Below are positions 1-22,040 of a stretch of 64,000 nt of DNA, in pieces. Position numbers and translations under genes: made by a program. The stretch is from Escherichia coli. GTDB lineage: Bacteria; Pseudomonadota; Gammaproteobacteria; Enterobacterales; Enterobacteriaceae. The stretch lies in NCBI RefSeq assembly GCF_017348835.2, contig NZ_CP071375.1; one strand, 5' to 3'. Each line of letters opens with the position of its first letter. Position 1 is the stretch's first letter. The notes beneath the pieces are model-generated. The model was not told the DNA's origin and searched no databases. It worked only from the letters and a program-made list of their open reading frames with translations.

Positions 1-3209
<3,209 letters not shown>

Positions 3210-3229
<20 letters not shown>

Positions 3230-4529
3230 TCTCCCGCATATTGCCAGCATGGCTTTTAATGAGCCGCTGATGCTTGAACCCGCCTATGCGCGGGTTTTCT
3301 TTTGTGCGCTTGCAGGCCAGCTTGGGATCAGCCGCCTGACGGATGCAGTATCCGGCGACAGCCTGACTGCCGGAGAGGCACCCGCGGCGCTGGCGTTATC
3401 CGGTGATGATGACGGACCACGACAGGCCCGGAGTTATCAGGTCATGAACGGCATCGCCGTGCTGCCGGTGTCCGGTACGCTGGTCAGCCGGACGCGGGCG
3501 CTGCAGCCGTATTCGGGGATGACCGGTTACAACGGCATTATCGCCCGTCTGCAACAGGCTGCCAGCGACCCGATGGTGGACGGCATTCTGCTCGATATGG
3601 ACACACCGGGCGGAATGGTGGCGGGAGCATTTGACTGTGCTGACATCATCGCCCGTGTGCGTGACATAAAACCGGTATGGGCGCTGGCCAACGACATGAA
3701 CTGCAGTGCAGGTCAGCTGCTTGCCAGCGCCGCCTCCCGGCGTCTGGTCACGCAGACCGCCCGGACAGGCTCCATCGGCGTCATGATGGCTCACAGTAAT
3801 TACGGTGCTGCCCTGGAGAAACAGGGCGTGGAAATCACGCTGATTTACAGCGGCAGCCATAAGGTGGATGGCAACCCCTACAGCCATCTACCGGGTGATG
3901 TCCGGGAAACACTGCAGTCCCGGATGGATGCAACCCGCCGGATGTTTGCGCAGAAGGTGTCGGCATATACCGGCCTGTCCGTGCAGGCTGTGCTGGATAC
4001 CGAGGCTGCAGTGTACAGCGGTCAGGAGGCCATTGATGCCGGACTGGCTGATGAACTTGTCAACAGCACCGATGCGATCACCGTTATGCGTGATGCACTG
4101 GATGCACGTAAATCCCGTCTCTCAGGAGGGCGAATGACCAAAGAGACTCAATCAACAACTGTTTCAGCCACTGCTTCGCAGGCTGACGTTACTGGCGTGG
4201 TGCCAGCGATGGAGGGCGAAAACGCCAGCGCGGCGCAGCCGGACGTGAACGCGCAGATCACCGCTGCGGTTGCGGCAGAAAACAGCCGCATTATGGGGAT
4301 CCTCAACTGTGAGGAGGCTCACGGACGCGAAGAACAGGCCCGCGTGCTGGCAGAAACCCCCGGTATGACCGTGGAAACGGCCCGCCGCATTCTGGCCGCA
4401 GCACCACAGAGTGCACAGGCGCGCAGTGATACTGCGCTGGATCGTCTGATGCAGGGGGCACCGGCACCGCTGGCTGCAGGTAACCCGGCATCTGATGCCG
4501 TTAACGATTTGCTGAACACACCAGTGTAA
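3210..4529 (+). CDS. C: Head maturation protease / minor capsid protein C (S49 ClpP-like family)
   Basis: GTG start at 3210 gives 439 aa beginning MTAELRNLPHIASMAF as in lambda gpC; the track ORF 3075-4529 is the same frame with an upstream extension. Confidence 0.9.
3924..4529 (+). CDS. Nu3: Scaffolding protein Nu3, nested in-frame in the 3' part of C
   Basis: In-frame internal ATG 714 nt after the C start, the same spacing as lambda Nu3. Confidence 0.7.
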   Translation: MDATRRMFAQKVSAYTGLSVQAVLDTEAAVYSGQEAIDAGLADELVNSTDAITVMRDALDARKSRLSGGRMTKETQSTTVSATASQADVTGVVPAMEGENASAAQPDVNAQITAAVAAENSRIMGILNCEEAHGREEQARVLAETPGMTVETARRILAAAPQSAQARSDTALDRLMQGAPAPLAAGNPASDAVNDLLNTPV

Positions 4530-4538
4530 GGGATGTTT

Positions 4539-4871
4539 ATGACGAGCAAAGAAACCTTTACCCATTACCAGCCGCTGGGCAACAGTGACCCGGCTCATAC
4601 CGCAACCGCGCCCGGCGGATTGAGTGCGAAAGCGCCTGCAATGACCCCGCTGATGCTGGACACCGCCACCCGTAAGCTGGTTGCGTGGGATGGCACCACC
4701 GACGGTGCTGCCGTTGGCATTCTGGCGGTTGCTGCTGACCAGACCAGCACCACGCTGACGTTCTACAAGTCCGGCACGTTCCGTTATGAGGATGTGCTCT
4801 GGCCGGAGGCTGCCAGCGATGAGACGAAAAAACGGACCGCGTTTGCCGGAACGGCAATCAGCATCGTTTAA
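4539..4871 (+). CDS. D: Head decoration protein D
   Basis: 110 aa beginning [12 protein letters not shown]; second ATG of the track ORF, preceded by taaggga. Confidence 0.93.
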
Positions 4872-4892
4872 CCTTACCCTTCATCACTAAAG

Positions 4893-4913
4893 GCCGCCTG
4901 TGCGGCTTTTTTT
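4893..4913 (+). terminator. Hairpin gccgc-ctgt-gcggc plus T7 between D and E (attenuator-like)
   Basis: Perfect GC stem followed by ttttttt read directly in sequence. Confidence 0.5.
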
Positions 4914-4926
4914 ACGGGATTTTTTT

Positions 4927-5952
4927 ATGTCGATGTACACAACCGCCCAGCTGCTGGCGGCAAATGAGCAGAAATTTAAGTTTGATCCGCTGTTTCTGCG
5001 TCTCTTTTTCCGTGAGAGCTATCCCTTCACCACGGAGAAAGTCTATCTCTCACAAATTCCGGGACTGGTAAACATGGCGCTGTACGTTTCGCCGATTGTT
5101 TCCGGTGAGGTTATCCGCTCCCGTGGCGGCTCCACCTCTGAATTTACGCCGGGATATGTCAAACCCAAGCATGAAGTGAATCCGCAGATGACCCTGCGTC
5201 GCCTGCCGGATGAAGATCCACAGAATCTGGCGGACCCGGCTTACCGCCGCCGTCGCATCATCCTGCAGAACATGCGAGACGAAGAGCTGGCCATTGCTCA
5301 GGTCGAAGAGATGCAGGCAGTTTCTGCCGTGCTTAAGGGCAAATACACCATGACCGGTGAAGCCTTCGATCCGGTTGAAGTGGATATGGGCCGCAGTGTG
5401 GCGAACAACATCACGCAGTCCGGCGGTACGGAGTGGAGCAAGCGTGACAAGTCCACGTATGACCCGACCGACGATATCGAAGCCTACGCGCTGAACGCCA
5501 GCGGTGTGGTGAATATCATCGTGTTTGATCCGAAAGGCTGGGCGCTGTTCCGTTCCTTCAAAGCCGTCAAGGAGAAGCTGGATACCCGTCGCGGCTCTCA
5601 TTCCGAGCTGGAGACAGCGGTAAAAGACCTGGGCGAAGCGGTGTCCTATAAGGGGATGTATGGCGATACGGCGATCGTCGTGTATTCCGGACAGTACGTG
5701 GAAAACGACGTCAAAAAGAACTTCCTTCCGGACAACACGATGGTGCTGGGGAACACTCAGGCACGCGGTCTGCGCACCTATGGCTGCATTCAGGATGCGG
5801 ACGCACAGCGCGAAGGTATTAACGCCTCTGCCCGCTACCCGAAAAACTGGGTGACCACCGGCGATCCGGCGCGTGAGTTCACCATGATTCAGTCAGCACC
5901 GCTGATGCTGCTGGCTGACCCTGATGCGTTCGTGTCCGTACAACTGGCGTAA
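4927..5952 (+). CDS. E: Major capsid protein E
   Basis: 341 aa beginning MSMYTTAQLLAANEQ, lambda gpE-like. Confidence 0.95.
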   Translation: MSMYTTAQLLAANEQKFKFDPLFLRLFFRESYPFTTEKVYLSQIPGLVNMALYVSPIVSGEVIRSRGGSTSEFTPGYVKPKHEVNPQMTLRRLPDEDPQNLADPAYRRRRIILQNMRDEELAIAQVEEMQAVSAVLKGKYTMTGEAFDPVEVDMGRSVANNITQSGGTEWSKRDKSTYDPTDDIEAYALNASGVVNIIVFDPKGWALFRSFKAVKEKLDTRRGSHSELETAVKDLGEAVSYKGMYGDTAIVVYSGQYVENDVKKNFLPDNTMVLGNTQARGLRTYGCIQDADAQREGINASARYPKNWVTTGDPAREFTMIQSAPLMLLADPDAFVSVQLA

Positions 5953-5993
5953 TCATGGCCCTTCGGGGCCATTTTCTCTCTGTGGAGGAGTCC

Positions 5994-6389
5994 ATGACGA
6001 AAGATGAACTGATTGCCCGTCTTCAGGTGCTGGGTGAGCAACTGAACCGTGATGTCAGCCTGACGGGGACGAAAGAAGAACTGGCACTCCGTGTGGCAGA
6101 GCTGGAAGAGGAGCTTGATGACACGGATGACGCTGCCGGTCAGGACACATCTGTCAGCCCGGAAAATGCGCTGACCGGACATGAAAATGAGGTTGTATCA
6201 GCGCAGCCGGATACCGTGACTGATACGGCTGATCTGGTCACGGTTGTGGCACTGGTGACGCTGCATACTGATGCACTTCACGCCACGCGGGATGAGGCTG
6301 TGGCATTTGTGCTGCCGGGAACGGCGTTCCGTGTCTCTGCCGGTGTGGCAGCTGAAATGACAGAGCGCGGCCTGGCCAGAATGCAATAA
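5994..6389 (+). CDS. FI: DNA packaging protein FI
   Basis: 132 aa beginning MTKDELIARL, ggagg RBS at 5985-5989. Confidence 0.9.
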   Translation: MTKDELIARLQVLGEQLNRDVSLTGTKEELALRVAELEEELDDTDDAAGQDTSVSPENALTGHENEVVSAQPDTVTDTADLVTVVALVTLHTDALHATRDEAVAFVLPGTAFRVSAGVAAEMTERGLARMQ

Positions 6390-6400
6390 CGGGAGGCGCT

Positions 6401-6775
6401 GTGGCTGATTTCGATAACCTGTTCGATGCTGCCATTGCCTGCGCCGATGAAACGATACGCGGGTACATGGGAACGTCAGCCACCATGACATCCGGTGAGC
6501 AGTCCGGTGCTGTGATACGTGGTGTTTTTGATGACCCTGAAAATATCAGCTATGCCGGACAGGGCGTGCGCGTTGAAGGCTCCAGCCCGTCCCTGTTTGT
6601 CCGGACTGATGATGTGCGGCAGCTGCGGCGCGGCGACACGCTGACCATCGGTGAGGAAAACTTCTGGATAGACCGGATTTCGCCGGATGATGGCGGAAGC
6701 TGTCATCTCTGGCTTGGGCGGGGCGTACCGCCTGCCGTTAACCGTCGCCGCTGGAAGGGGGATGTATGGCCATAA
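6401..6775 (+). CDS. FII: Head-tail connector / head completion protein FII
   Basis: Begins MADFDNLFDAAIA; ORF is 124 aa, slightly longer than my recollection of lambda FII, and overlaps the Z start. Confidence 0.85.
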   Translation: MADFDNLFDAAIACADETIRGYMGTSATMTSGEQSGAVIRGVFDDPENISYAGQGVRVEGSSPSLFVRTDDVRQLRRGDTLTIGEENFWIDRISPDDGGSCHLWLGRGVPPAVNRRRWKGDVWP

Positions 6776-7344
6776 AAGGTCTTGAGCAGGCCGTTGAAAA
6801 CCTCAGCCGTATCAGCAGAACGGCGGTGCCCGGTGCCGCCGCAATGGCCATTAACCGCGTTGCTTCATCCGCGATATCGCAGTCGGTGTCACAGGTTGCC
6901 CGTGAGACAAAGGTACGCCGGAAACTGGTAAAGGAAAGGGCCAGGCTGAAAAGGGCCACGGTCAAAAATCCGCAGGCCAGAATCAAGGTTAACCGGGGGG
7001 ATTTGCCCGTAATCAAGCTGGGTAATGCGCGGGTTGTCCTTTCGCGCCGCAGGCGTCGTAAAAAGGGGCAGCGTTCATCCCTGAAAGGTGGCGGCAGCGT
7101 GCTTGTGGTGGGTAACCGTCGTATTCCCGGCGCGTTTATTCAGCAACTGAAAAATGGCCGGTGGCATGTTATGCAGCGTGTGGCCGGGAAAAACCGTTAC
7201 CCCATTGATGTGGTGAAAATCCCGATGGCGGTGCCGCTGACCACGGCGTTTAAACAAAATATTGAGCGGATACGGCGTGAACGTCTTCCGAAAGAGCTGG
7301 GCTATGCGCTGCAGCATCAACTGAGGATGGTAATAAAGCGATGA
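6766..7344 (+). CDS. Z: Tail completion protein Z
   Basis: 192 aa beginning MAIKGLEQAVENL, lambda order. Confidence 0.92.
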   Translation: MAIKGLEQAVENLSRISRTAVPGAAAMAINRVASSAISQSVSQVARETKVRRKLVKERARLKRATVKNPQARIKVNRGDLPVIKLGNARVVLSRRRRRKKGQRSSLKGGGSVLVVGNRRIPGAFIQQLKNGRWHVMQRVAGKNRYPIDVVKIPMAVPLTTAFKQNIERIRRERLPKELGYALQHQLRMVIKR

Positions 7345-7736
7345 AACATACTGAACTCCGTGCAGCCGTACTGGATGCACTGGAGAAGCATGACACCGGG
7401 GCGACGTTTTTTGATGGTCGCCCCGCTGTTTTTGATGAGGCGGATTTTCCGGCAGTTGCCGTTTATCTCACCGGCGCTGAATACACGGGCGAAGAGCTGG
7501 ACAGCGATACCTGGCAGGCGGAGCTGCATATCGAAGTTTTCCTGCCTGCTCAGGTGCCGGATTCAGAGCTGGATGCGTGGATGGAGTCCCGGATTTATCC
7601 GGTGATGAGCGATATCCCGGCACTGTCAGAGTTGATCACCAGTATGGTGGCCAGTGGCTATGACTACCGACGCGACGATGATGCGGGCCTGTGGAGTTCA
7701 GCCGATCTGACTTATGTCATTACCTATGAAATGTGA
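7341..7736 (+). CDS. U: Tail terminator protein U
   Basis: 131 aa beginning [18 protein letters not shown] overlap with Z. Confidence 0.92.
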
Positions 7737-7743
7737 GGACGCT

Positions 7744-8484
7744 ATGCCTGTACCAAATCCTGTAATGCCGGTGAAAGGTGCCGGGACCACCCTGTGGGTT
7801 TATAAGGGGAGCGGTGACCCTTATGCGAATCCGCTTTCAGACGTTGACTGGTCGCGTCTGGCAAAAGTTAAAGACCTGACGCCCGGCGAACTGACCGCTG
7901 AGTCCTATGACGACAGCTATCTCGATGATGAAGATGCGGACTGGACTGCGACCGGGCAGGGGCAGAAATCAGCCGGAGATACCAGCTTCACGCTGGCGTG
8001 GATGCCCGGAGAGCAGGGGCAGCAGGCGCTGCTGGCGTGGTTTAATGAAGGTGATACCCGTGCCTATAAAATCCGCTTCCCGAACGGCACGGTCGATGTG
8101 TTCCGTGGCTGGGTCAGCAGTATCGGTAAAGCGGTGACGGCGAAGGAAGTGATCACCCGCACGGTGAAGGTCACCAATGTGGGACGTCCGTCGATGGCAG
8201 AAGATCGCAGCACGGTCACAGCGGCAACCGGCATGACCGTGACGCCTGCCAGCACCTCGGTGGTGAAAGGGCAGAGCACCACGCTGACCGTGGCATTCCA
8301 GCCGGAAGGCGCAACCGACAAGAGCTTCCGTGCGGTGTCTGCGGATAAAACAAAAGCCACCGTGTCGGTCAGTGGTATGACCATCACCGTGAAAGGTGTT
8401 GCTGCAGGCAAGGTCAACATTCCGGTCGTATCCGGTAATGGTGAACTTGCTGCGGTTGCAGAAATCACTGTCACCGACAGTTAA
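7744..8484 (+). CDS. V: Major tail tube protein V with C-terminal Ig-like domain
   Basis: 246 aa beginning [14 protein letters not shown]; the track ORF starts 30 nt upstream in the same frame. Confidence 0.93.
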
Positions 8485-8499
8485 TCCGGAGAGTCAGCG

Positions 8500-8922
8500 A
8501 TGTTCCTGAAAACCGAATCATTTGAACATAACGGCGTGACCGTCACGCTTTCTGAACTTTCAGCCCTGCAGCGTATTGAGCATCTCGCCCTGATGAAACG
8601 GCAGGCAGAACAGGCGGAGTCAGACAGCAACCGGAAGTTTACAGTGGAAGACGCCATCAGAACCGGTGCTTTTGTGGTGGCGATGTCCCTGTGGCATAAC
8701 CATCCGCAGAAGACAAAGCAGCCTTCCATGAATGAAGCCGTTAAACAGATTGAGCAGGAAGTGCTTACCACCTGGCCCACAGAGGCAATTTCTCATGCTG
8801 AAAACGTGGTGTACCGGCTGTCCGGTATGTATGAGTTTGTGGTGAATGATGCCCCTGAACAGGCAGAGGACGCCGGGCCTGCAGAGCCTGTTTCTGCGGG
8901 AAAGTGTTCGACGGTGAGCTGA
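8500..8922 (+). CDS. G: Tail assembly chaperone G
   Basis: 140 aa beginning MFLKTESFEHNGVTV. Confidence 0.92.
   Translation: MFLKTESFEHNGVTVTLSELSALQRIEHLALMKRQAEQAESDSNRKFTVEDAIRTGAFVVAMSLWHNHPQKTKQPSMNEAVKQIEQEVLTTWPTEAISHAENVVYRLSGMYEFVVNDAPEQAEDAGPAEPVSAGKCSTVS
8898..8904 (+). promoter_or_regulatory. Programmed -1 ribosomal frameshift slippery heptamer G GGA AAG (G to G-T fusion)
   Basis: Heptamer sits in the G zero frame as X XXY YYZ just before the G stop; the -1 frame continues open to 9338. Confidence 0.85.
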
Positions 8923-9338
8923 GTTTTGCCCTGAAACTGGCGCGCGAGATGGGGCGACCCGACTGGCGTGCCATGCTTGCCGGGATGTCATCCACGGAGT
9001 ATGCCGACTGGCACCGCTTTTACAGTACCCATTATTTTCATGATGTTCTGCTGGATATGCACTTTTCCGGGCTGACGTACACCGTGCTCAGCCTGTTTTT
9101 CAGCGATCCGGATATGCATCCGCTGGATTTCAGTCTGCTGAACCGGCGTGAGGCTGACGAAGAGCCTGAAGATGATGTGCTGATGCAGAAAGCGGCAGGG
9201 CTTGCCGGAGGCGTCCGCTTTGGCCCGGACGGGAATGAAGTTATCCCCGCTTCCCCGGATGTGGCGGACATGACGGAGGATGACGTAATGCTGATGACAG
9301 TATCAGAAGGGATCGCAGGAGGAGTCCGGTATGGCTGA
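8904..9338 (+). CDS. T: Tail assembly chaperone T frame, expected to be made only as the G-T frameshift fusion
   Basis: -1 frame ORF overlapping the end of G and ending at the start of H. Confidence 0.85.
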   Translation: MFDGELSFALKLAREMGRPDWRAMLAGMSSTEYADWHRFYSTHYFHDVLLDMHFSGLTYTVLSLFFSDPDMHPLDFSLLNRREADEEPEDDVLMQKAAGLAGGVRFGPDGNEVIPASPDVADMTEDDVMLMTVSEGIAGGVRYG

Positions 9339-11892
9339 ACCGGTAGGCGATCTGGTCGTTGATTTAAGTCTGGATGCGGCCAGATTTGACGAGCAGATGG
9401 CCAGAGTCAGGCGTCATTTTTCCGGTACGGAAAGTGATGCGAAAAAAACAGCGGCAGTCGTTGAACAGTCGCTGAGCCGACAGGCGCTGGCTGCACAGAA
9501 AGCGGGGATTTCCGTCGGGCAGTATAAAGCCGCCATGCGTATGCTGCCTGCACAGTTCACCGACGTGGCCACGCAGCTTGCAGGCGGGCAAAGTCCGTGG
9601 CTGATCCTGCTGCAACAGGGGGGGCAGGTGAAGGACTCCTTCGGCGGGATGATCCCCATGTTCAGGGGGCTTGCCGGTGCGATCACCCTGCCGATGGTGG
9701 GGGCCACCTCGCTGGCGGTGGCGACCGGTGCGCTGGCGTATGCCTGGTATCAGGGCAACTCAACCCTGTCCGATTTCAACAAAACGCTGGTCCTTTCCGG
9801 CAATCAGGCGGGACTGACGGCAGATCGTATGCTGGTCCTGTCCAGAGCCGGGCAGGCGGCAGGGCTGACGTTTAACCAGACCAGCGAGTCACTCAGCGCA
9901 CTGGTTAAGGCGGGGGTAAGCGGTGAGGCTCAGATTGCGTCCATCAGCCAGAGTGTGGCGCGTTTCTCCTCTGCATCCGGCGTGGAGGTGGACAAGGTCG
10001 CTGAAGCCTTCGGGAAGCTGACCACAGACCCGACGTCGGGGCTGACGGCGATGGCACGCCAGTTCCATAACGTGACGGCGGAGCAGATTGCGTATGTTGC
10101 TCAGTTGCAGCGTTCCGGCGATGAAGCCGGGGCATTGCAGGCGGCGAACGAGGCCGCAACGAAAGGGTTTGATGACCAGACCCGCCGCCTGAAAGAGAAC
10201 ATGGGCACGCTGGAGACCTGGGCAGACAGGACTGCGCGGGCCTTCAAATCCATGTGGGATGCGGTGCTGGATATTGGTCGTCCTGATACCGCGCAGGAGA
10301 TGCTGATTAAGGCAGAGGCTGCGTTTAAGAAAGCAGACGACATCTGGAATCTGCGCAAGGATGATTATTTTGTTAACGATGAAGCGCGGGCGCGTTACTG
10401 GGATGATCGTGAAAAGGCCCGTCTTGCGCTTGAAGCCGCCCGAAAGAAGGCTGAGCAGCAGACTCAACAGGACAAAAATGCGCAGCAGCAGAGCGATACC
10501 GAAGCGTCACGGCTGAAATATACCGAAGAGGCGCAGAAGGCTTACAAACGGCTGCAGACGCCGCTGGAGAAATATACCGCCCGTCAGGAAGAACTGAACA
10601 AGGCACTGAAAGACGGGAAAATCCTGCAGGCGGATTACAACACGCTGATGGCGGCGGCGAAAAAGGATTATGAAGCGACGCTGAAAAAGCCGAAACAGTC
10701 CGGCGTGAAGGTGTCTGCGGGCGATCGTCAGGAAGACAGTGCTCATGCTGCCCTGCTGACGCTTCAGGCAGAACTCCGGACGCTGGAGAAGCATGCCGGA
10801 GCGAATGAGAAAATCAGCCAGCAGCGCCGGGATTTGTGGAAGGCAGAAAGTCAGTTCGCGGTACTGGAGGAGGCGGCACAACGTCGCCAGCTGTCCGCAC
10901 AGGAGAAATCCCTGCTGGCGCATAAAGATGAGACGCTGGAGTACAAACGCCAGCTGGCTGCACTTGGCGACAAGGTTACGTATCAGGAGCGCCTGAACGC
11001 GCTGGCGCAGCAGGCGGATAAATTCGCACAGCAGCAACGGGCAAAACGGGCCGCCATTGATGCGAAAAGCCGGGGGCTGACTGACCGGCAGGCAGAACGG
11101 GAAGCCACGGAACAGCGCCTGAAGGAACAGTATGGCGATAATCCGCTGGCGCTGAATAACGTCATGTCAGAGCAGAAAAAGACCTGGGCGGCTGAAGACC
11201 AGCTTCGCGGGAGCTGGATGGCAGGCCTGAAGTCCGGCTGGAGTGAGTGGGAAGAGAGCGCCACGGACAGTATGTCGCAGGTAAAAAGTGCAGCCACGCA
11301 GACCTTTGATGGTATTGCACAGAATATGGCAGCGATGCTGACCGGCAGTGAGCAGAACTGGCGCAGCTTCACCCGTTCCGTGCTGTCCATGATGACAGAA
11401 ATTCTGCTTAAGCAGGCAATGGTGGGGATTGTCGGGAGTATCGGCAGCGCCATTGGCGGGGCTGTTGGTGGCGGCGCATCCGCGTCAGGCGGTACAGCCA
11501 TTCAGGCCGCTGCGGCGAAATTCCATTTTGCAACCGGAGGATTTACGGGAACCGGCGGCAAATATGAGCCAGCGGGGATTGTTCACCGTGGTGAATTTGT
11601 CTTCACGAAGGAGGCAACCAGCCGGATTGGCGTGGGGAATCTCTACCGGCTGATGCGCGGCTATGCCACCGGTGGTTATGTCGGTACACCGGGCAGTCTG
11701 GCTGACAGCCGGTCGCAGGCGTCCGGGACGTTTGAGCAGAATAACCATGTGGTGATTAACAACGACGGCACGAACGGGCAGATAGGTCCGGCTGCTCTGA
11801 AGGCGGTGTATGACATGGCCCGCAAGGGTGCCCGTGATGAAATTCAGACACAGATGCGTGATGGTGGCCTGTTCTCCGGAGGTGGACGATGA
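9331..11892 (+). CDS. H: Tail tape measure protein H
   Basis: 853 aa, long coiled-coil-like middle and Gly-rich C-terminal part, lambda gpH length. Confidence 0.93.
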   Translation: MAEPVGDLVVDLSLDAARFDEQMARVRRHFSGTESDAKKTAAVVEQSLSRQALAAQKAGISVGQYKAAMRMLPAQFTDVATQLAGGQSPWLILLQQGGQVKDSFGGMIPMFRGLAGAITLPMVGATSLAVATGALAYAWYQGNSTLSDFNKTLVLSGNQAGLTADRMLVLSRAGQAAGLTFNQTSESLSALVKAGVSGEAQIASISQSVARFSSASGVEVDKVAEAFGKLTTDPTSGLTAMARQFHNVTAEQIAYVAQLQRSGDEAGALQAANEAATKGFDDQTRRLKENMGTLETWADRTARAFKSMWDAVLDIGRPDTAQEMLIKAEAAFKKADDIWNLRKDDYFVNDEARARYWDDREKARLALEAARKKAEQQTQQDKNAQQQSDTEASRLKYTEEAQKAYKRLQTPLEKYTARQEELNKALKDGKILQADYNTLMAAAKKDYEATLKKPKQSGVKVSAGDRQEDSAHAALLTLQAELRTLEKHAGANEKISQQRRDLWKAESQFAVLEEAAQRRQLSAQEKSLLAHKDETLEYKRQLAALGDKVTYQERLNALAQQADKFAQQQRAKRAAIDAKSRGLTDRQAEREATEQRLKEQYGDNPLALNNVMSEQKKTWAAEDQLRGSWMAGLKSGWSEWEESATDSMSQVKSAATQTFDGIAQNMAAMLTGSEQNWRSFTRSVLSMMTEILLKQAMVGIVGSIGSAIGGAVGGGASASGGTAIQAAAAKFHFATGGFTGTGGKYEPAGIVHRGEFVFTKEATSRIGVGNLYRLMRGYATGGYVGTPGSLADSRSQASGTFEQNNHVVINNDGTNGQIGPAALKAVYDMARKGARDEIQTQMRDGGLFSGGGR

Positions 11893-12218
11893 AAACCTTC
11901 CGCTGGAAAGTGAAACCCGGTATGGATGTGGCTTCGGCCCCTTCTGTAAGAAAGGTGCGCTTTGGTGATGGCTATTCCCAGCGAGCGCCTGCCGGGCTGA
12001 ATGCCAACCTGAAAACGTACAGCGTGACGCTTTCTGTCCCCCGTGAGGAGGCCACGGTACTGGAGTCGTTTCTGGAAGAGCACGGGGGCTGGAAATCCTT
12101 TCTGTGGACGCCGCCTTATGAGTGGCGGCAGATAAAGGTGACCTGCGCAAAATGGTCGTCGCGGGTCAGTATGCTGCGTGTTGAGTTCAGCGCAGAGTTT
12201 GAACAGGTGGTGAACTGA
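11889..12218 (+). CDS. M: Tail tip protein M
   Basis: 109 aa, lambda order and size. Confidence 0.9.
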   Translation: MKTFRWKVKPGMDVASAPSVRKVRFGDGYSQRAPAGLNANLKTYSVTLSVPREEATVLESFLEEHGGWKSFLWTPPYEWRQIKVTCAKWSSRVSMLRVEFSAEFEQVVN

Positions 12219-12916
12219 TGCAGGATATCCGGCAGGAAACACTGAATGAATGCACCCGTGCGGAGCAGTCGGCCAGCGTGGTGCTCTGGGAAATCGACCT
12301 GACAGAGGTCGGTGGAGAACGTTATTTTTTCTGTAATGAGCAGAACGAAAAAGGTGAGCCGGTCACCTGGCAGGGGCGACAGTATCAGCCGTATCCCATT
12401 CAGGGGAGCGGTTTTGAACTGAATGGCAAAGGCACCAGTACGCGCCCCACGCTGACGGTTTCTAACCTGTACGGTATGGTCACCGGGATGGCGGAAGATC
12501 TGCAGAGTCTGGTCGGCGGAACGGTGGTCCGGCGTAAGGTTTACGCCCGTTTTCTGGATGCGGTGAACTTCGTCAACGGAAACAGTGACGCCGATCCGGA
12601 GCAGGAGGTGATCAGCCGCTGGCGCATCGAGCAGTGCAGCGAACTGAGCGCGGTGAGTGCCTCCTTTGTACTGTCCACGCCGACGGAAACGGATGGCGCT
12701 GTTTTTCCGGGACGTATCATGCTGGCCAACACCTGCACCTGGACCTATCGCGGTGACGAGTGCGGTTATAGCGGTCCGGCTGTCGCGGATGAATATGACC
12801 AGCCAACGTCCGATATCACGAAGGATAAATGCAGCAAATGCCTGAGCGGTTGTAAGTTCCGCAATAACGTCGGCAACTTTGGCGGCTTCCTTTCCATTAA
12901 CAAACTTTCGCAGTAA
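12218..12916 (+). CDS. L: Tail tip protein L
   Basis: 232 aa with C-terminal Cys cluster, lambda order and size. Confidence 0.9.
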   Translation: MQDIRQETLNECTRAEQSASVVLWEIDLTEVGGERYFFCNEQNEKGEPVTWQGRQYQPYPIQGSGFELNGKGTSTRPTLTVSNLYGMVTGMAEDLQSLVGGTVVRRKVYARFLDAVNFVNGNSDADPEQEVISRWRIEQCSELSAVSASFVLSTPTETDGAVFPGRIMLANTCTWTYRGDECGYSGPAVADEYDQPTSDITKDKCSKCLSGCKFRNNVGNFGGFLSINKLSQ

Positions 12917-12921
12917 ATCCC

Positions 12922-13665
12922 ATGACACAGACAGAATCAGCGATTCTGGCGCACGCCCGGCGATGTGCGCCAGCGGAGTCGTGCGGCTTTGTGGTAAGCA
13001 CGCCGGAGGGGGAAAGATATTTCCCCTGCGTGAATATCTCCGGTGAGCCGGAGGCGTATTTCCGTATGTCGCCGGAAGACTGGCTGCAGGCAGAAATGCA
13101 GGGTGAGATTGTGGCGCTGGTCCACAGCCACCCCGGTGGTCTGCCCTGGCTGAGTGAGGCCGACCGGCGGCTGCAGGTGCAGAGTGATTTGCCGTGGTGG
13201 CTGGTCTGCCGGGGGACGATTCATAAGTTCCGCTGTGTGCCGCATCTCACCGGGCGGCGCTTTGAGCACGGTGTGACGGACTGTTACACACTGTTCCGGG
13301 ATGCTTATCATCTGGCGGGGATTGAGATGCCGGACTTTCATCGTGAGGATGACTGGTGGCGTAACGGCCAGAATCTCTATCTGGATAATCTGGAGGCGAC
13401 GGGGCTGTATCAGGTGCCGTTGTCAGCGGCACAGCCGGGCGATGTGCTGCTGTGCTGTTTTGGTTCATCGGTGCCGAATCACGCCGCAATTTACTGCGGC
13501 GACGGCGAGCTGCTGCACCATATTCCTGAACAACTGAGCAAACGAGAGAGGTACACCGACAAATGGCAGCGACGCACACACTCCCTCTGGCGTCACCGGG
13601 CATGGCGCGCATCTGCCTTTACGGGGATTTACAACGATTTGGTCGCCGCATCGACCTTCGTGTGA
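12922..13665 (+). CDS. K: Tail tip assembly protein K (JAMM/MPN plus NlpC/P60-like domains)
   Basis: 247 aa; HSHPGG JAMM-type motif and a Cys-containing GVTDCY motif seen in translation. Confidence 0.88.
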   Translation: MTQTESAILAHARRCAPAESCGFVVSTPEGERYFPCVNISGEPEAYFRMSPEDWLQAEMQGEIVALVHSHPGGLPWLSEADRRLQVQSDLPWWLVCRGTIHKFRCVPHLTGRRFEHGVTDCYTLFRDAYHLAGIEMPDFHREDDWWRNGQNLYLDNLEATGLYQVPLSAAQPGDVLLCCFGSSVPNHAAIYCGDGELLHHIPEQLSKRERYTDKWQRRTHSLWRHRAWRASAFTGIYNDLVAASTFV

Positions 13666-14234
13666 AAACGGGGGCTGAAGCCATCCGGGCACTGGCCACA
13701 CAGCTCCCGGCGTTTCGTCAGAAACTGAGCGACGGCTGGTATCAGGTACGGATTGCCGGGCGGGACGTCAGCACGTCCGGGTTAACGGCGCAGTTACATG
13801 AGACTCTGCCTGATGGCGCTGTGATTCATATTGTTCCCAGAGTCGCCGGGGCCAAGTCAGGTGGCGTATTCCAGATTGTCCTGGGGGCTGCCGCCATTGC
13901 CGGATCATTCTTTACCGCCGGAGCCACCCTTGCAGCATGGGGGGCAGCCATTGGGGCCGGTGGTATGACCGGCATCCTGTTTTCTCTCGGTGCCAGTATG
14001 GTGCTCGGTGGTGTGGCGCAGATGCTGGCACCGAAAGCCAGAACTCCCCGTACACAGACAACGGATAACGGTAAGCAGAACACCTATTTCTCCTCACTGG
14101 ATAACATGGTTGCCCAGGGCAATGTTCTGCCTGTTCTGTACGGGGAAATGCGCGTGGGGTCACGCGTGGTTTCTCAGGAGATCAGCACGGCAGACGAAGG
14201 GGATGGTGGTCAGGTTGTGGTGATTGGTCGCTGA
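13563..14234 (+). CDS. I: Tail tip assembly protein I
   Basis: 223 aa, overlaps the 3' end of K as in lambda. Confidence 0.88.
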   Translation: MAATHTLPLASPGMARICLYGDLQRFGRRIDLRVKTGAEAIRALATQLPAFRQKLSDGWYQVRIAGRDVSTSGLTAQLHETLPDGAVIHIVPRVAGAKSGGVFQIVLGAAAIAGSFFTAGATLAAWGAAIGAGGMTGILFSLGASMVLGGVAQMLAPKARTPRTQTTDNGKQNTYFSSLDNMVAQGNVLPVLYGEMRVGSRVVSQEISTADEGDGGQVVVIGR

Positions 14235-14294
14235 TGAAAAACGTTTTATGTGAAACCGCCTCCGGGCGGTTTTGTCGTTTATGGAGCGTGAGGA

Positions 14295-17200
14295 ATGGGT
14301 AAAGGCAGCAGTAAGGGGCATACTCCGCGCGAAGCGAAGGACAACCTGAAGTCCACGCAGTTGCTGAGTGTGATCGATGCCATCAGCGAAGGGCCGGTTG
14401 AAGGTCCGGTGGATGGATTAAAAAGCGTGCTGCTGAACAGTACGCCAGTGCTGGACACTGAGGGGAATACCAACATCTCCGGCGTCACGGTGGTGTTCCG
14501 GCCCGGTGAGCAGGAGCAGACACCGCCGGAGGGATTTGAATCCTCCGGCTCCGAGGCGGTGCTGGGTACGGAAGTGAAATACGACACGCCGATTACCCGG
14601 ACCATCACGTCGGCAAACATCGACCGTCTGCGCTTTACCTTCGGTGTGCAGGCACTGGTGGAAACCACCTCAAAGGGGGACCGGAATCCGTCGGAAGTCC
14701 GCCTGCTGGTTCAGATACAGCGTAACGGTGGCTGGGTGACGGAAAAAGACATCACCATTAAAGGCAAAACCACCTCACAGTATCTGGCCTCGGTGGTGGT
14801 GGATAACCTGCCGCCGCGCCCGTTTAATATCCGGATGCGCAGGATGACGCCGGACAGCACCACAGACCAGCTGCAGAACAAAACGCTCTGGTCGTCATAC
14901 ACCGAAATCATCGATGTGAAACAGTGCTACCCGAACACGGCACTGGTCGGCGTACAGGTGGATTCGGAGCAGTTCGGCAGCCAGCAGGTGAGCCGTAATT
15001 ATCATCTTCGCGGGCGCATTCTGCAGGTGCCGTCGAACTATAACCCGCAGACGCGACAATACAGCGGTATCTGGGACGGAACGTTAAAACCGGCATACAG
15101 CAACAACATGGCCTGGTGTCTGTGGGATATGCTGACCCATCCGCGCTGCGGCATGGGGAAACGTCTTGGTGCGGCGGATGTGGATAAATGGGCGCTGTAT
15201 GTCATCGGCCAGAATTGCGACCAGTCGGTGCCGGATGGCTTTGGTGGCACGGAACCGCGTATCACCTGTAATGCGTACCTGACCACGCAGCGCAAGGCGT
15301 GGGATGTGCTCAGTGATTTCTGCTCGGCGATGCGCTGTATGCCGGTATGGAACGGGCAGACGCTGACGTTCGTGCAGGACCGGCCATCGGATAAGGTGTG
15401 GACCTATAACCGCAGTAATGTGGTGATGCCGGATGATGGCGCGCCGTTCCGCTACAGCTTCAGCGCCCTGAAGGACCGTCATAATGCCGTTGAGGTGAAC
15501 TGGATTGACCCGAATAACGGCTGGGAGACGGCGACAGAGCTTGTGGAGGATACGCAGGCCATTGTCCGTTACGGTCGTAACGTCACGAAGATGGATGCCT
15601 TTGGCTGTACCAGCCGGGGGCAGGCACACCGCGCCGGGCTGTGGCTGATTAAAACGGAGCTGCTGGAGACGCAGACCGTGGACTTCAGCGTGGGCGCAGA
15701 AGGGCTTCGCCATGTACCGGGCGATGTCATTGAAATCTGTGATGATGACTATGCCGGTATCAGCACCGGCGGGCGTGTGCTGGCGGTGAACAGCCAGACC
15801 CGGACGCTGACGCTCGACCGTGAAATCACGCTGCCATCCTCCGGTACCACGCTGATAAGCCTGGTTGACGGAAGTGGCAATCCGGTCAGCGTGGAGGTTC
15901 AGTCCGTCACCGACGGCGTGAAGGTGAAAGTGAGCCGTGTTCCTGACGGCGTTGCCGGATACAGCGTGTGGGGGCTGAAGCTGCCGACGCTGCGCCAGCG
16001 CCTGTTCCGCTGTGTGAGTATCCGTGAGAACGACGACGGCACGTATGCCATCACTGCCGTGCAGCATGTACCGGAAAAAGAGGCCATCGTGGATAACGGA
16101 GCGCACTTTGACGGCGACCAGAGCGGCACGGTGAATGGTGTCACGCCGCCAGCGGTGCAGCACCTGACCGCAGAAGTCACCGCAGACAGTGGGGAGTATC
16201 AGGTGCTGGCGCGCTGGGACACGCCGAAGGTAGTGAAGGGTGTGAGCTTTATGCTTCGCCTGACCGTGGCCGCCGATGACGGCAGTGAGCGGCTGGTCAG
16301 CACGGCCCGGACGACGGAAACCACTTACCGCTTCAGGCAGCTGGCGCTGGGGCGTTACACGCTGACGGTCCGGGCGGTAAATGCCCGGGGACAGCAGGGC
16401 GATCCGGCGTCGGTATCGTTCCGGATTGCCGCCCCGGCAGCGCCGTCGCGGATTGAGCTGACGCCGGGCTATTTTCAGATAACTGCCACGCCGCATCTTG
16501 CCGTTTATGATCCGACGGTACAGTTTGAGTTCTGGTTCTCGGAAACGCGGATTACCGATATCAGGCAGGTTGAAACCACAGCCCGCTACCTTGGCACGGG
16601 GCTGTACTGGATAGCCGCCAGTATCAATATCAAACCGGGCCATGATTATTACTTTTATATCCGCAGTGTGAACACCGTTGGCAAATCGGCATTCGTGGAG
16701 GCCGTCGGTCGGGCGAGCGATGATGCGGAAGGTTACCTGGATTTTTTCAAAGGCAAGATAACCGAATCCCATCTCGGTAAAGAGCTGCTGGAAAAAGTTG
16801 ATCTGACGGAGGATAACGCCAGCAGACTGGATGAGTTTTCGAAAGAGTGGAAGGACGCTAACGATAAATGGAATGCCATGTGGGGCGTCAAAATTGAGCA
16901 GACCAAAGACGGCAAACATTATGTCGCGGGTATTGGCCTCAGCATGGAGGACACGGAGGAAGGCAAGCTGAGCCAGTTTCTGGTTGCTGCTAACCGTATC
17001 GCGTTTATTGACCCGGCAAACGGGAATGAAACGCCGATGTTTGTGGCGCAGGGCAACCAGATATTCATGAACGACGTGTTCCTGAAACGCCTGACGGCAC
17101 CCACCATTACCAGCGGTGGCAGTCCTCCGGTATTTTCCCTGACATCAGACGGAAAGCTGACCGCTAAAAATGCGGATATCAGTGGCAGTGTGAATGCGAA

Positions 17201-17708
17201 CTCAGGGACGCTCAACAATGTCACGGTAAATGAAAACTGTACGATTAAGGGCATGCTGGAGGCGACTCAGGTCAGAGGTGACTTCGTTAAAGCTGTATCC
17301 AAATCATTTCCGAAACAGGCTGGTACGTGGGGTAACACGGAAACACCAAACGGGACGGTTACAGTCACCATCAGCGATGATCATAACTTTGACCGTCAAA
17401 TCATTATTCCGCCCATTATCTTTAACGGAATAGCGTATAGCGATCCGGGAAGTGGTAATAACCCGGGAGGTACAAGATACACGGGTTATGGTTTTGAAGT
17501 TCGCAAAAACGGTGTATTAATCGCATCCAGAGAAACTAAAGGGGCCATTCCCGGTAGCTACAGTGCGGTTATTGATATGCCGAGTGGCAGGGGAAGCGTC
17601 ACTCTGGAGTTTAAGGTTTTCCATAAAGGCAATCAGTGGGCAGGTAATATCACCGACTGTACGGTGATTGTGACCAAAAAAGCCGCTTCCGGCATCAGTA
17701 TTCGTTGA
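14295..17708 (+). CDS. J: Tail tip host-specificity protein J (central tail fibre)
   Basis: 1137 aa, lambda gpJ-like over most of its length; the last ~150 codons are compositionally distinct. Confidence 0.93.
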
Positions 17709-18441: not shown

Positions 18442-21402
18442 ATGGCAGTAAAGATTTCAGGTGTACTGAAAGACGGCACAGGAAAACCGGTACAGAACTG
18501 CATAATCCAGCTGAAAGCAAAACGTAACAGCACCACGGTGGTGGTGAACACGCTGGCCTCAGAAAATCCGGATGAAGCCGGGCGTTACAGCATGGACGTT
18601 GAGTACGGTCAGTACAGCGTTATTCTGTTGGTGGAGGGATTCCCGCCGTCACATGCCGGGACCATCACCGTGTATGAAGATTCTCAACCCGGTACGCTGA
18701 ATGATTTTCTCGGTGCCATGACGGAGGATGATGCCCGTCCGGAGGCACTGCGTCGTTTTGAACTGATGGTGGAAGAGGTGGCGCGTAACGCGTCCGTGGT
18801 GGCACAGAACACGGCAGCCGCAAAGAAGTCAGCCAGTGATGCCAGCACATCTGCCAGTGAGGCGGCAACCCGTGCGACTGATGCTGCAGATTCAGCACGT
18901 GCAGCCAGCACGTCAGCCGGACAGGCCGCGTCGTCGGCTCAGTCAGCGTCTTCCAGCGCAGGAACGGCATCAGCAAAAGCCTCTGAGGCATCAAAAAGTG
19001 CTGCCGCTGCAGAGTCCTCAAAAAGCGCGGCGGCTACCAGTGCCGGTGCGGCGAAAACGTCAGAAACGAATGCGGCAGCGTCAGAACAATCAGCCGCCAC
19101 TTCTGCATCCACCGCGACCACGAAAGCGTCAGAAGCTGCCACCTCAGCCCGGGATGCGGCGGCCTCAAAAGAGGCGGCAAAATCATCAGAAACGAGCGCA
19201 GCCTCGAGCGCCAGTAATGCCGCTTCCTCGGCAACGGCGGCAGGAAATTCCGCGAAGGCGGCAAAGACGTCTGAGACAAACGCTAAGTCCTCTGAAACGG
19301 CAGCAGCACAGAGTGCCTCCGCAGGCGCAGACTCAAAAACAGCGGCTGCATCATCTGCCAGCGCCGCGTCAACAAGTGCCGGGCAGGCCTCAGCCAGTGC
19401 CACCGCTGCCGGAAAGTCGGCAGAAAGTGCCGCATCGTCTGCTTCAACAGCCACAACGAAGGCTGGCGAAGCCACTGAACAGGCCAGCGCAGCAGCGAGT
19501 TCTGCTTCCGCAGCGAAGACATCCGAAACGAACGCGAAAGCGTCGGAAACCAGCGCAGAATCCTCAAAAACTGCTGCCGCATCGTCAGCCAGTTCGGCGG
19601 CGTCATCGGCATCATCTGCGTCTGCTTCAAAAGATGAGGCGACCAGACAAGCGTCAGCAGCGAAGAGCAGCGCCACGACGGCATCCACGAAGGCGACAGA
19701 GGCAGCTGGCAGTGCGACGGCGGCAGCTCAGAGCAAAAGTACGGCGGAATCCGCGGCAACGCGCGCCGAGACAGCGGCAAAACGGGCAGAGGATATTGCA
19801 TCCGCCGTGGCGCTTGAAGATGCGAGCACGACGAAAAAGGGGATAGTACAGCTCAGCAGTGCGACTAACAGCACTTCCGAGTCACTGGCGGCAACGCCAA
19901 AAGCAGTTAAGTCCGCGTATGACCTGGCTAACGGGAAATACACCGCACAGGATGCAACGACAGCACAGAAAGGGATAGTTCAGCTCAGCAGCGCGACCAA
20001 CAGCACATCTGAAATGCTGGCGGCAACGCCAAAGTCGGTAAAGGCAGCCTATGACCTTGCTAACGGGAAATATACCGCTCAGGACGCTACGACAGCACAA
20101 AAAGGAATTATCCAGCTCAGTAGTGCAACCAACAGCGCATCTGAAACGCTTGCCGCGACACCGAAAGCAGTGAAAGCAGCTAATGATAATGCGAATGGTC
20201 GGGTACCTTCTGCCCGTAAGGTGAATGGTAAGGCGCTTTCAGCGGATATAACACTGACGCCGAAAGATATTGGTACGCTTAACTCAACAACAATGTCATT
20301 CAGCGGTGGTGCTGGTTGGTTCAAATTAGCAACGGTAACCATGCCACAGGCGAGTTCTGTTGTTTCAATTACGTTGATTGGTGGCGCGGGATTTAACGTG
20401 GGGTCACCTCAACAGGCAGGTATATCTGAACTTGTTTTGCGTGCAGGTAATGGTAATCCGAAGGGGATTACTGGTGCTTTATGGCAGCGCACATCGACAG
20501 GGTTTACAAATTTTGCCTGGGTCAATACATCTGGTGATACTTACGATATTTACGTTGCAATCGGAAATTATGCGACTGGTGTAAATATTCAATGGGATTA
20601 TACCAGTAATGCCAGCGTGACTATTCATACGTCACCAGCATATTCTGCTAATAAGCCGGAAGGGTTAACGGACGGTACAGTTTATTCACTCTATACGCCA
20701 TCAGAGCAGTTTTATCCGCCTGGCGCACCAATCCCGTGGCCATCAGATACCGTTCCGTCTGGTTATGCCCTGATGCAGGGGCAGACTTTTGACAAATCTG
20801 CATACCCGAAACTTGCAGCCGCTTATCCGTCAGGCGTGATCCCTGATATGCGTGGCTGGACGATTAAGGGCAAACCCGCCAGTGGTCGTGCCGTATTGTC
20901 TCAGGAACAGGACGGCATTAAATCGCACACCCACAGCGCCAGCGCATCCAGTACGGATTTGGGGACGAAAACCACATCGTCGTTTGATTACGGCACTAAA
21001 TCCACGAATAACACCGGGGCTCATACGCACAGTCTGAGCGGCTCTACAAGCTCGGCCGGAGCACACTCGCACGTTGATGGTCGCAGGTTTAATACAAGCA
21101 CTTTTAAAGACACCTATCAGTATGGTTCTACAGCTGTCGGAAGTAACTCATACCAGGTACAAGGGGCGGTTGGTCTGGGCATTGGCACGATGGCGAATAC
21201 GAACTCTGCTGGCGCGCATACCCACTCACTGTCCGGCACTGCTGCAAGCGCAGGTGCACACGCACATACTGTCGGTATTGGTGCTCATACGCACTCCGTT
21301 GCGATTGGCTCACATGGACACACCATCACCGTTAACGCTGCTGGTAACGCGGAAAACACCGTCAAAAACATCGCATTTAACTATATTGTGAGGCTTGCAT
21401 AA
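18442..21402 (+). CDS. stf: Side tail fibre protein
   Basis: 986 aa: ~330-aa Ala/Ser/Thr-rich low-complexity segment, three tandem 44-aa tail fibre repeats, His-rich distal part with GAHTHS motifs. Confidence 0.9.
19819..20214 (+). repeat. Three tandem 132-bp coding repeats inside stf (phage tail fibre repeat)
   Basis: Unit [44 protein letters not shown] repeated at 19819, 19951 and 20083. Confidence 0.85.
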
Positions 21403-21986: not shown

Positions 21987-22040
21987 TCATTGGGATTATG
22001 CCGCAGCACGTCTTAAGCAAGAACGTGCTGCGGTTGGATG

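What the first reader, a model, noticed from the sequence alone, without database searches (positions are those of the whole stretch)
8890..8925. G/T programmed -1 frameshift site conserved
Slippery heptamer G GGA AAG lies in the zero frame six codons before the G stop, and the -1 frame (T) is open to the start of H. This reproduces the conserved tail chaperone frameshift and indicates the tail assembly module is intact.
Basis: partly seen in the sequence, partly recalled or inferred. Interest (0 to 1): 0.25.

Follow-up and report, generated by a model that had tools for sequence, protein, structure and literature searches.

The report
Phage lambda G/GT tail-chaperone frameshift site
This is the well-known ribosomal "slip" site of phage lambda's tail-assembly chaperone genes G and T, sitting unchanged in a lambda-like prophage of an E. 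coli chromosome, so it is real but ordinary.

Summary
GGGAAAG lies at 8898-8904, read as G GGA AAG in gene G (8500-8922), with AAG the sixth codon before the TGA. The -1 frame is open from the site to 9338 and overlaps the H start (9331) by 8 nt.

The heptamer alone is not enriched (5 seen, 7.2 expected). The full configuration is: 2 of 452 X XXY YYZ heptamers have it, and the other is an antisense artefact.

The region is 97.5% identical to lambda V-G-T-H, and identical to lambda from 17 nt upstream to 40 nt downstream of the heptamer. In lambda this site gives about 4% -1 frameshifting and makes gpGT.

Among related phage loci, 78 of 79 keep the in-frame heptamer six codons before the G stop, even at 60-67% G identity. 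No conserved downstream stimulatory RNA structure was found.

The window matches E. coli PE164 exactly over the 23.5 kb compared: a prophage at the argU/DLP12 locus. The tail genes Z to J are full length and free of stops. That had to be shown separately, because an O111 strain carries the identical G/T in a prophage wrecked by IS elements.

Verdict: already known, low interest.

The parts
8500..8922 (+). Gene G, the tail assembly chaperone: the zero-frame product gpG, 140 aa
   Evidence: ORF, translation. 96.4% identical to lambda G over 140 aa with no gaps. Matches PF06894 (E 3e-58) and the TIGR01674 equivalog (212.8 bits against a cutoff of 74.45).
8898..8904 (+). Slippery heptamer G GGA AAG, the -1 frameshift site
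   Evidence: Read directly, with the frame confirmed. Identical to lambda. In frame in 78 of 79 related loci. The third bases of codons 133-135 never vary among 60 distinct G alleles. The literature gives GGGAAAG as lambda's G/GT slippery sequence (PMC3296357 Table 1; PMC7618472).
8904..9338 (+). T reading frame (-1 relative to G), 144 codons plus the stop; translated as the C-terminal part of gpGT
   Evidence: 99.3% identical to lambda T. Matches PF06223 and the TIGR01715 equivalog. The -1 frame opens only at 8859 and has no ATG, GTG or TTG before the GTG at 8904. There is no Shine-Dalgarno match upstream.
8500..9338 (+). Predicted fusion gene GT = join(8500..8904, 8904..9338), giving gpGT of 279 aa
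   Evidence: Fusion built. It carries both the G and T family domains. Phage 434 record OL657226 annotates the homologous CDS as a 2-piece join described as the frameshift product.
8904..8922 (+). G/T overlap, coding in two frames
   Evidence: Downstream of the site, 3 of the 5 G-frame codons vary (up to 5 residue types at one position). The T frame varies at 2 of 5 codons (2-3 types). No relative has a -1-frame stop downstream of the site.
7744..8484 (+). Gene V, the major tail tube protein and upstream neighbour
   Evidence: 98% identical to lambda V. Matches PF16461 and Big_2.
9331..11892 (+). Gene H, the tape measure protein and downstream neighbour; its start overlaps the end of T by 8 nt
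   Evidence: 853 aa, 99.3% identical to lambda H. Matches PF06791 and PF09718.
6766..17708 (+). Lambda-type tail gene block Z U V G T H M L K I J, with every ORF uninterrupted
   Evidence: All matches are full length. Z, U, V, G, T, H, M, L, K and I are 96-100% identical to lambda, and J is 88% identical.
8912..8982 (+). Candidate downstream RNA structure starting 7 nt after the heptamer; examined and NOT supported as a functional element
   Evidence: The 100-nt fold gives z = -1.69, with 12 of 200 shuffles as good. The 50-nt fold gives z = +1.07. Across 25 distinct sequences there are 0-1 compensatory pairs and 6-9 pairs broken in some sequences. Synonymous variation in T codons 7-30 is not significantly suppressed (p = 0.22). 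Rfam has no match.

Best explanation
This is the programmed -1 ribosomal frameshift site of the lambda-type tail assembly chaperone genes G and T, carried by a lambda-like prophage in an E. coli chromosome.

Most ribosomes translating G read GGA-AAG in the zero frame. They stop six codons later and make gpG (140 aa). A few percent slip back one base on G GGA AAG: the P-site tRNA-Gly re-pairs from GGA to GGG, and the A-site tRNA-Lys(UUU) re-pairs from AAG to AAA. These ribosomes continue in the T frame and make the 279-aa fusion gpGT.

gpG and the G part of gpGT bind the tape measure protein H. The T part recruits the tail tube protein V, so the tube polymerises around H. Neither protein ends up in the virion, and a ratio of about 30:1 is needed.

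Shown here: the sequence anatomy, identity to lambda, conservation of the site, and family membership.
Taken from lambda experiments in the literature: the slipping itself, its rate of about 4%, and the roles of the proteins.
Inferred: that the same happens in this prophage.
For: - The heptamer is in register, six codons before the G stop, with the -1 frame open to the H start.
- The 1.7-kb V-G-T-H stretch is 97.5% identical to lambda J02459.
- The window is identical to lambda from 8881 to 8944, that is 17 nt upstream and 40 nt downstream of the heptamer.
- 78 of 79 related loci that hold both G and T have in-frame GGGAAAG at the same distance from the G stop. This holds at 60-67% G and 74% T protein identity, with different flanking bases.
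- Among 60 distinct G alleles (nucleotide identity down to 72.7%), the synonymous third bases of GCG GGA AAG never vary. The baseline is 16 of 45 for comparable codons.
- All 44 distinct junction sequences have a -1-frame stop within 20 codons upstream of the site, and none has one in the 40 codons downstream.
- Family matches: PF06894 plus PF06223, and the equivalogs TIGR01674 plus TIGR01715.
- Gene order is V-G-T-H.
- A curated phage 434 record annotates the GT join and gives no ribosome-binding site for T.
- Literature: GGGAAAG, about 96% zero frame, and dependence on tRNA-Lys mnm5s2U34 (PMC3296357); the 30:1 ratio and the chaperone roles (PMC5009743); G_GGA_AAG (PMC7618472).
Against: - Nothing in the sequence argues against it.
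- No expression or frameshift measurement exists for this strain.
- The bare heptamer is not statistically enriched.
- RefSeq (PGAP) and the original lambda record annotate T as a separate CDS starting at GTG 8904.
- In the matching genome PE164 the prophage integrase is a pseudogene, so the prophage may be defective and the late operon might be expressed rarely or never.
- Most relatives examined are close (mostly above 80% identity) and share ancestry, so the conservation counts are not independent events.
Confidence: 0.95

Rival explanations
1. The site is sequence-intact but idle. The prophage is defective, the late operon is not expressed productively, and the frameshift signal is an unused relic of recent ancestry.
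For: - In E. coli PE164, which is 100% identical to window 1-23492, the prophage integrase intD is frameshifted with an internal stop.
- The argU/DLP12 locus holds degraded remnants in other strains, such as O111 RM9322.
- Matches to G/T occur in 3701 of 5426 complete E. coli genomes, often in several copies per genome, and many of those are likely cryptic.
Against: - All head and tail genes from W to tfa are full length and free of stops.
- In PE164 the Q-like antiterminator, the lysis genes, Nu1 and A are also annotated as intact.
- A defective integrase blocks excision but not late-gene translation.
- This rival concerns use, not identity. The site would still be the G/GT frameshift signal.
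Confidence: 0.15
2. T is made as a separate 144-aa protein by independent initiation at GTG 8904, as GenBank J02459 and RefSeq annotate it, and the heptamer is incidental.
For: - ORF listing reports a GTG-initiated ORF at 8904-9338.
- Lambda J02459 and PGAP annotate T as its own CDS.
Against: - There is no Shine-Dalgarno match: the upstream sequence is CUGUUUCUGCGGGAAA, directly abutting the GTG.
- Curated phage 434 annotation gives ribosome-binding sites for V, G and H but none for T, and joins G and T.
- In some relatives the first T-frame codon is GCG or GCA (Ala), which is not a start codon, yet the heptamer and the T frame are kept (L070, L072, L073).
- The literature reports gpGT as the T-containing product (PMC5009743, PMC3296357).
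Confidence: 0.03
3. The frame change arises from RNA polymerase slippage (transcriptional slippage) rather than ribosomal slippage.
For: The net result, a -1 frame product, would be the same. The review PMC5009743 covers both mechanisms in phages.
Against: - The homopolymer runs are only 3 nt long (GGG, AAA). From general knowledge, transcriptional slippage needs runs of roughly 7 or more A/T.
- Frameshift efficiency in lambda responds to tRNA-Lys anticodon modification, which is a ribosomal signature (PMC3296357).
Confidence: 0.01
4. The heptamer and the open -1 frame coincide by chance.
For: The heptamer itself occurs no more often than expected.
Against: - The site is identical to the experimentally defined lambda site.
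- Only 2 of 452 heptamers in the window have the full configuration.
- The site is conserved across 60 distinct alleles.
Confidence: 0.01

Closest known systems
Bacteriophage lambda genes G and T, gpG/gpGT -1 programmed ribosomal frameshift (Levin, Hendrix & Casjens 1993; Xu, Hendrix & Duda 2013, 2014)
   Same: - Same heptamer, G GGA AAG.
- Same distance to the G stop.
- Same 8-nt T/H overlap.
- Same ORF lengths: 140, 144 and 279 aa.
- Same V-G-T-H gene order.
- G is 96.4% and T is 99.3% identical in protein.
- The sequence is identical to lambda from 17 nt upstream to 40 nt downstream of the site.
   Different: Only point substitutions: 5 amino-acid changes in G and 1 in T. It sits in a chromosomal prophage at the argU/DLP12 locus rather than in lambda itself. 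Nothing differs in mechanism.
The conserved tail assembly chaperone frameshift of long-tailed dsDNA phages in general (Xu, Hendrix & Duda 2004, Mol Cell; reviewed in PMC5009743)
   Same: Two overlapping ORFs lie between the major tail gene and the tape measure gene. The second ORF is expressed only as a low-level frameshift extension of the first.
   Different: Across that wider class the slippery sequences and protein sequences differ, and some members use +1 or -2 shifts. This locus is the lambda archetype, not a divergent member.
E. coli dnaX tau/gamma -1 frameshift and IS3-family transposase orfA/orfB -1 frameshifts
   Same: -1 slippage on an X XXY YYZ heptamer ending in AAG. The heptamer is decoded by the single E. 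coli tRNA-Lys(UUU).
   Different: Those sites use A AAA AAG with strong stimulators: an upstream Shine-Dalgarno-like element and a downstream hairpin or pseudoknot (from general knowledge; the IS1203 copy in L003 is annotated with a pseudoknot). They shift at high efficiency. Here I found no supported stimulator, and lambda's rate is only about 4%.

Membership tests
Lambda-type G/GT tail assembly chaperone -1 programmed frameshift | Two overlapping ORFs located between the major tail tube gene and the tape measure gene | tested here: met
   V 7744-8484, G 8500-8922, T frame to 9338, H 9331-11892. Pfam confirms V as the tail tube protein and H as the tape measure protein.
Lambda-type G/GT tail assembly chaperone -1 programmed frameshift | The second ORF is in the -1 frame relative to the first and open from the overlap to its own stop | tested here: met
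   The -1 frame is open 8859-9335 with a stop at 9336-38. T is in the -1 frame in 78 of 79 related loci.
Lambda-type G/GT tail assembly chaperone -1 programmed frameshift | An X XXY YYZ slippery heptamer, in register with the upstream ORF, inside the overlap and near the G stop | tested here: met
   G GGA AAG at 8898-8904, with AAG the sixth codon before TGA. Identical to lambda.
Lambda-type G/GT tail assembly chaperone -1 programmed frameshift | Protein homology to gpG and gpT | tested here: met
   TIGR01674 at 212.8 bits (cutoff 74.45) and TIGR01715 at 185.8 bits (cutoff 77.35), both equivalog models. PF06894 and PF06223. 96% and 99% identity to lambda G and T.
Lambda-type G/GT tail assembly chaperone -1 programmed frameshift | The slip site is conserved in relatives beyond what G coding requires | tested here: met
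   78 of 79 loci keep it. Three consecutive synonymous third bases are invariant in 60 distinct alleles, against a baseline of 36%. The upstream flank varies at nearly every column. Caveat: the sequences are related, so this is not a formal probability.
Lambda-type G/GT tail assembly chaperone -1 programmed frameshift | T has no translation start of its own | tested here: inconclusive
   No start codon lies in the -1 frame between 8859 and 8903, and no Shine-Dalgarno match precedes GTG 8904. Some relatives have GCG or GCA at that codon. Absence of initiation cannot be proven from sequence.
Lambda-type G/GT tail assembly chaperone -1 programmed frameshift | A gpGT fusion protein is actually made at a few percent of gpG and is required for tail assembly | not testable with these tools
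   Known for lambda from the literature (PMC3296357, PMC5009743, citing Levin 1993 and Xu 2013/2014). Not measured for this prophage.
Stimulator-dependent -1 PRF (dnaX / IS3 type) | A conserved downstream hairpin or pseudoknot, or an upstream Shine-Dalgarno-like element | tested here: not met
   Fold z-scores are -1.69 and +1.07. There are 0-1 compensatory pairs and 6-9 pairs broken in some sequences. Synonymous sites show no significant suppression (p = 0.22). The 17 nt upstream contain no GGAGG-like motif. Rfam has no match.

The most novel reading that the evidence does not exclude
The branched RNA structure predicted at 8912-8982 could be a weak, previously unappreciated stimulator that tunes the lambda G/GT frameshift rate. 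It starts 7 nt after the heptamer, and its variable pairs mostly toggle between G-C and G-U. My data do not exclude this, but they do not support it: there are no compensatory changes, several pairs are broken in some sequences, and synonymous-site suppression is not significant.
Probability: 0.06. Interest if true: 0.3.

Novelty: already known. Interest (0 to 1): 0.05.

Why it matters
It matters little beyond correct annotation.

- The lambda G/GT frameshift has been a textbook case of recoding since 1993. Matches to this segment occur in 3701 of 5426 complete E. coli genomes.
- RefSeq annotates T here as a free-standing GTG-initiated CDS rather than as a slippage join with G. The biologically relevant 279-aa gpGT is therefore missing from the protein set of thousands of genomes.
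- An intact slip site is not evidence of an intact tail module.
- For anyone testing this prophage, trypsin cuts exactly at the Gly-Lys slip junction. Mass spectrometry should therefore look for the T-frame peptide VFDGELSFALK, or use a different protease.

Tried and rejected
1. Enrichment of the bare heptamer: 5 seen against 7.2 expected. It is not informative alone, so I replaced it with a full-configuration scan. The shuffle control there is weak, because shuffled DNA lacks long ORFs.

2. A downstream stimulatory structure. The folds were marginal. A covariation test on 25 distinct sequences found 0-1 compensatory pairs. The synonymous-site test was not significant. I rejected it as unsupported.

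3. A known RNA family. Rfam gave only a chance snoRNA hit at 14.9 bits against a threshold of 38.

4. O111 RM9322 as the source genome. It is 100% identical in G/T, but its prophage is degraded and differs from the window. PE164 is the true match.

5. L006 as a possible alternative recoding variant, with T in frame with G after a TGA. It turned out to be a 4-nt insertion that truncates G, which means a broken copy or a sequencing error.

6. Reading Xu et al. 2013 (PMC3762263) for statements on stimulators: the paper is not held. A further literature search added nothing. Levin 1993 and Xu 2004 could not be read directly and are cited only through papers that cite them.

Full report
**1. The observation**

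The sequence reads ...GTT TCT GCG GGA AAG TGT TCG ACG GTG AGC TGA in the frame of an ORF that starts at ATG 8500 and ends at TGA 8920-8922 (140 aa).
- GGGAAAG occupies 8898-8904 and is in register as G GGA AAG.
- AAG is the sixth codon before the stop.
- The -1 frame carries a TGA at 8856-58, then stays open through the heptamer to TGA 9336-38.
- An 853-codon ORF starts at ATG 9331, which gives the overlap ATGGCTGA.

**2. Is it more than chance?**

The heptamer on its own is not enriched: 5 copies in the window against 7.2 +/- 2.6 expected.

The configuration is what counts. I required at least 100 codons open upstream, a zero-frame stop within 30 codons, and a -1 frame open for at least 100 codons.
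- Only two of the 452 X XXY YYZ heptamers on both strands pass.
- One is this site.
- The other is T TTC CCC on the antisense strand of gene K, which is not a coding strand.

**3. What it is**

- Window 7700-9400 is 97.5% identical to lambda J02459 8911-10611, which covers the end of U, then V, G and T, and the start of H.
- In a three-way alignment with lambda and HK630, the window is identical to lambda from 8881 to 8944. That is the heptamer plus 17 nt upstream and 40 nt downstream.
- The predicted 279-aa fusion matches PF06894 (lambda TAC protein G) and PF06223 (minor tail protein T).
- It also matches the NCBI equivalog models TIGR01674 and TIGR01715, far above their cutoffs.
- The neighbouring genes match the lambda tail tube and tape measure families.

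**4. Comparative test**

A scan of viral contigs returned 80 loci at 74-99% identity to the fusion.

*Heptamer.* Of the 79 loci that contain both G and T, 78 have GGGAAAG in the G frame, with AAG six codons before the G stop and T in the -1 frame. These include lineages with only 60-67% G identity and different flanks, for example GATGATGATTTTTCTGCGGGAAAGTCTTCGACGGCGAGCTGA.

*The exception.* L006 has a 4-nt insertion upstream that truncates G. It is a broken or mis-sequenced copy.

*Synonymous positions.* Among 60 distinct G alleles, down to 72.7% nucleotide identity, the third bases of codons 133-135 (GCG GGA AAG) never vary. These positions are free to change as far as gpG is concerned. Only 16 of 45 comparable codons are that conserved.

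*Frame signature.* All 44 distinct junction sequences have a -1-frame stop within 20 codons upstream of the site. None has one in the 40 codons after it. Nearly every upstream column varies, while the heptamer and its downstream sequence are strongly conserved. After the site the G-frame residues vary freely (up to 5 residue types per position), whereas the T frame stays open and conservative. This is the signature expected if translation moves into the -1 frame exactly at the heptamer.

*Caveat.* These sequences share ancestry, so the counts are not independent events.

**5. Mechanism**

From the literature on lambda:
- GGGAAAG is the G/GT slippery sequence.
- About 96% of ribosomes stay in frame.
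- The single tRNA-Lys(UUU) decodes both AAG and AAA.
- Loss of its 2-thio modification raises frameshifting and reduces phage yield (PMC3296357; PMC7618472).
- gpG and gpGT are needed at about 30:1.
- The G part binds the tape measure protein H, and the T part recruits the tube protein V.
- Neither protein is found in virions (PMC5009743).

The window is identical to lambda across the signal and the host is E. coli, so I infer the same behaviour here. That inference is not a measurement.

Note that the body text of PMC3296357 prints the site as GGGTTTG, while its Table 1 and PMC7618472 give GGGAAAG.

**6. Stimulatory elements**

- A 100-nt fold downstream predicts a branched structure at 8912-8982, starting 7 nt after the heptamer. 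Its z-score is only -1.69, and 12 of 200 shuffles fold as well.
- The first 50 nt fold no better than shuffles (z = +1.07).
- Across 25 distinct sequences, 16 pairs are invariant, 8-9 change on one side only (G-C to G-U), 0-1 show a compensatory change, and 6-9 are broken in some sequences.
- Synonymous variation in T codons 7-30 (45%) is not significantly below that in the rest of T (61%; Fisher p = 0.22).
- No Shine-Dalgarno-like motif lies upstream, and Rfam has nothing.

I conclude there is no supported stimulator. This fits the low (about 4%) rate reported for lambda.

**7. Independent initiation of T**

GenBank J02459 and RefSeq annotate T as a CDS starting at GTG 8904. Three points argue against that reading.
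- The -1 frame has no start codon between 8859 and 8903, and GTG 8904 has no Shine-Dalgarno match.
- In L070, L072 and L073 that codon is GCG or GCA, which is not a start codon.
- A curated phage 434 record annotates a two-piece GT join and gives ribosome-binding sites for V, G and H but none for T.

**8. Context and the claim that the tail module is intact**

- The window is 100% identical, with 0 mismatches over 23,492 nt, to E. coli PE164, a pig isolate.
- It contains the late-gene arm of a lambda-like prophage, followed by ompT, nfrAB, cus and the ent/fep genes.
- In PE164 the prophage is about 40 kb and sits at tRNA-Arg, the DLP12 locus. Its integrase is a pseudogene (this lies outside the window).
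- tblastn of the lambda proteins shows W, B, C, Nu3, D, E, FI, FII, Z, U, V, G, T, H, M, L, K and I all full length with no internal stops, at 88-100% identity.
- J is 1137 aa at 88% identity. lom is 44% identical. stf is an uninterrupted 986 aa, and tfa is 93% identical.

So the module is intact at the ORF level.

That conclusion cannot be drawn from the slip site. O111 RM9322 has a 100% identical G/T, but there FII is split by an IS3, H is truncated by IS1203, and M to J are absent.

**9. Verdict**

The finding is correct, the mechanism is the classic lambda G/GT -1 frameshift, and it is already known. Matches to this segment occur in 3701 of 5426 complete E. coli genomes. Interest is low.

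The main residual uncertainty is whether this particular prophage still expresses its late genes. No tool here can answer that.

Noticed in passing
window 6752-6775: The lambda FII stop codon TGA is TGG here, a single-base change. FII therefore runs on for 7 more codons (124 aa against 117) to TAA 6773-75 and overlaps the Z start at 6766. RefSeq annotates the same 124-aa allele in PE164 and in the RM9322 remnant.
   Followed up: partly
window 8904-9338, and the RefSeq records in L003 and L086: PGAP annotates T as a free-standing CDS starting at GTG and does not annotate the G-T slippage join (checked in two RefSeq genomes, L003 and L086). The 279-aa gpGT is therefore absent from their protein sets. 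The same probably holds for many of the 3701 complete E. coli genomes with a match. Curated phage records such as 434 OL657226 do annotate the join.
   Followed up: yes
L003 (NZ_CP028117.1, O111 RM9322), locus 2400-13830: The same argU locus holds a degraded version of this prophage with a 100% identical G/T. The integrase and the protease are partial, FII is split by an IS3 element, H is truncated by IS1203, and M to stf are missing.
   Followed up: yes
window 21810-21941 and 22859-22990: The 3' part of tfa is present twice as a direct repeat of 132 nt at 86% identity. The second copy is a tfa fragment. Between the copies lies a SAM-dependent methyltransferase on the opposite strand (22041-22709). 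The stretch from about 22000 to 26000 has low GC (0.41) and carries an alpha/beta hydrolase and ompT. It looks like cargo or the remnant of an earlier prophage end.
   Followed up: partly
L086 (NZ_CP114128.1, PE164), locus 39228-40390; outside the window: In the genome that matches the window exactly, the prophage integrase intD next to tRNA-Arg is annotated as frameshifted with an internal stop. The prophage may therefore be unable to excise, even though its structural genes are intact.
   Followed up: no
window 18442-21402: The side tail fibre gene stf is one uninterrupted 986-aa ORF. In laboratory lambda the homologous region is split into orf-401 and orf-314. Only the first 124 aa are more than 90% identical to lambda. 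J is 88% and lom only 44% identical, so the host-range end of the tail module differs from lambda's.
   Followed up: partly
L006 1830-1900 and L067 about 1960-2010: Two natural variants of the G-T region. L006 has a 4-nt insertion 30 nt upstream of the heptamer, which truncates G at codon 124 and leaves T in frame behind a TGA. L067 has a 45-nt in-frame deletion in T between two GACTGGC repeats.
   Followed up: partly
window 13009-13015, minus strand: This is the only other heptamer in the window with the long-ORF, near-stop, long -1-frame configuration. It is T TTC CCC on the antisense strand of gene K. I judge it an artefact of the long antisense ORFs typical of GC-rich phage genes.
   Followed up: partly
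PMC3296357, results text: The paper's body text prints the lambda slippery sequence as GGGTTTG with codons GGT-TTG. Its Table 1 and other reviews give GGGAAAG. Anyone copying the text version would search for the wrong motif.
   Followed up: yes
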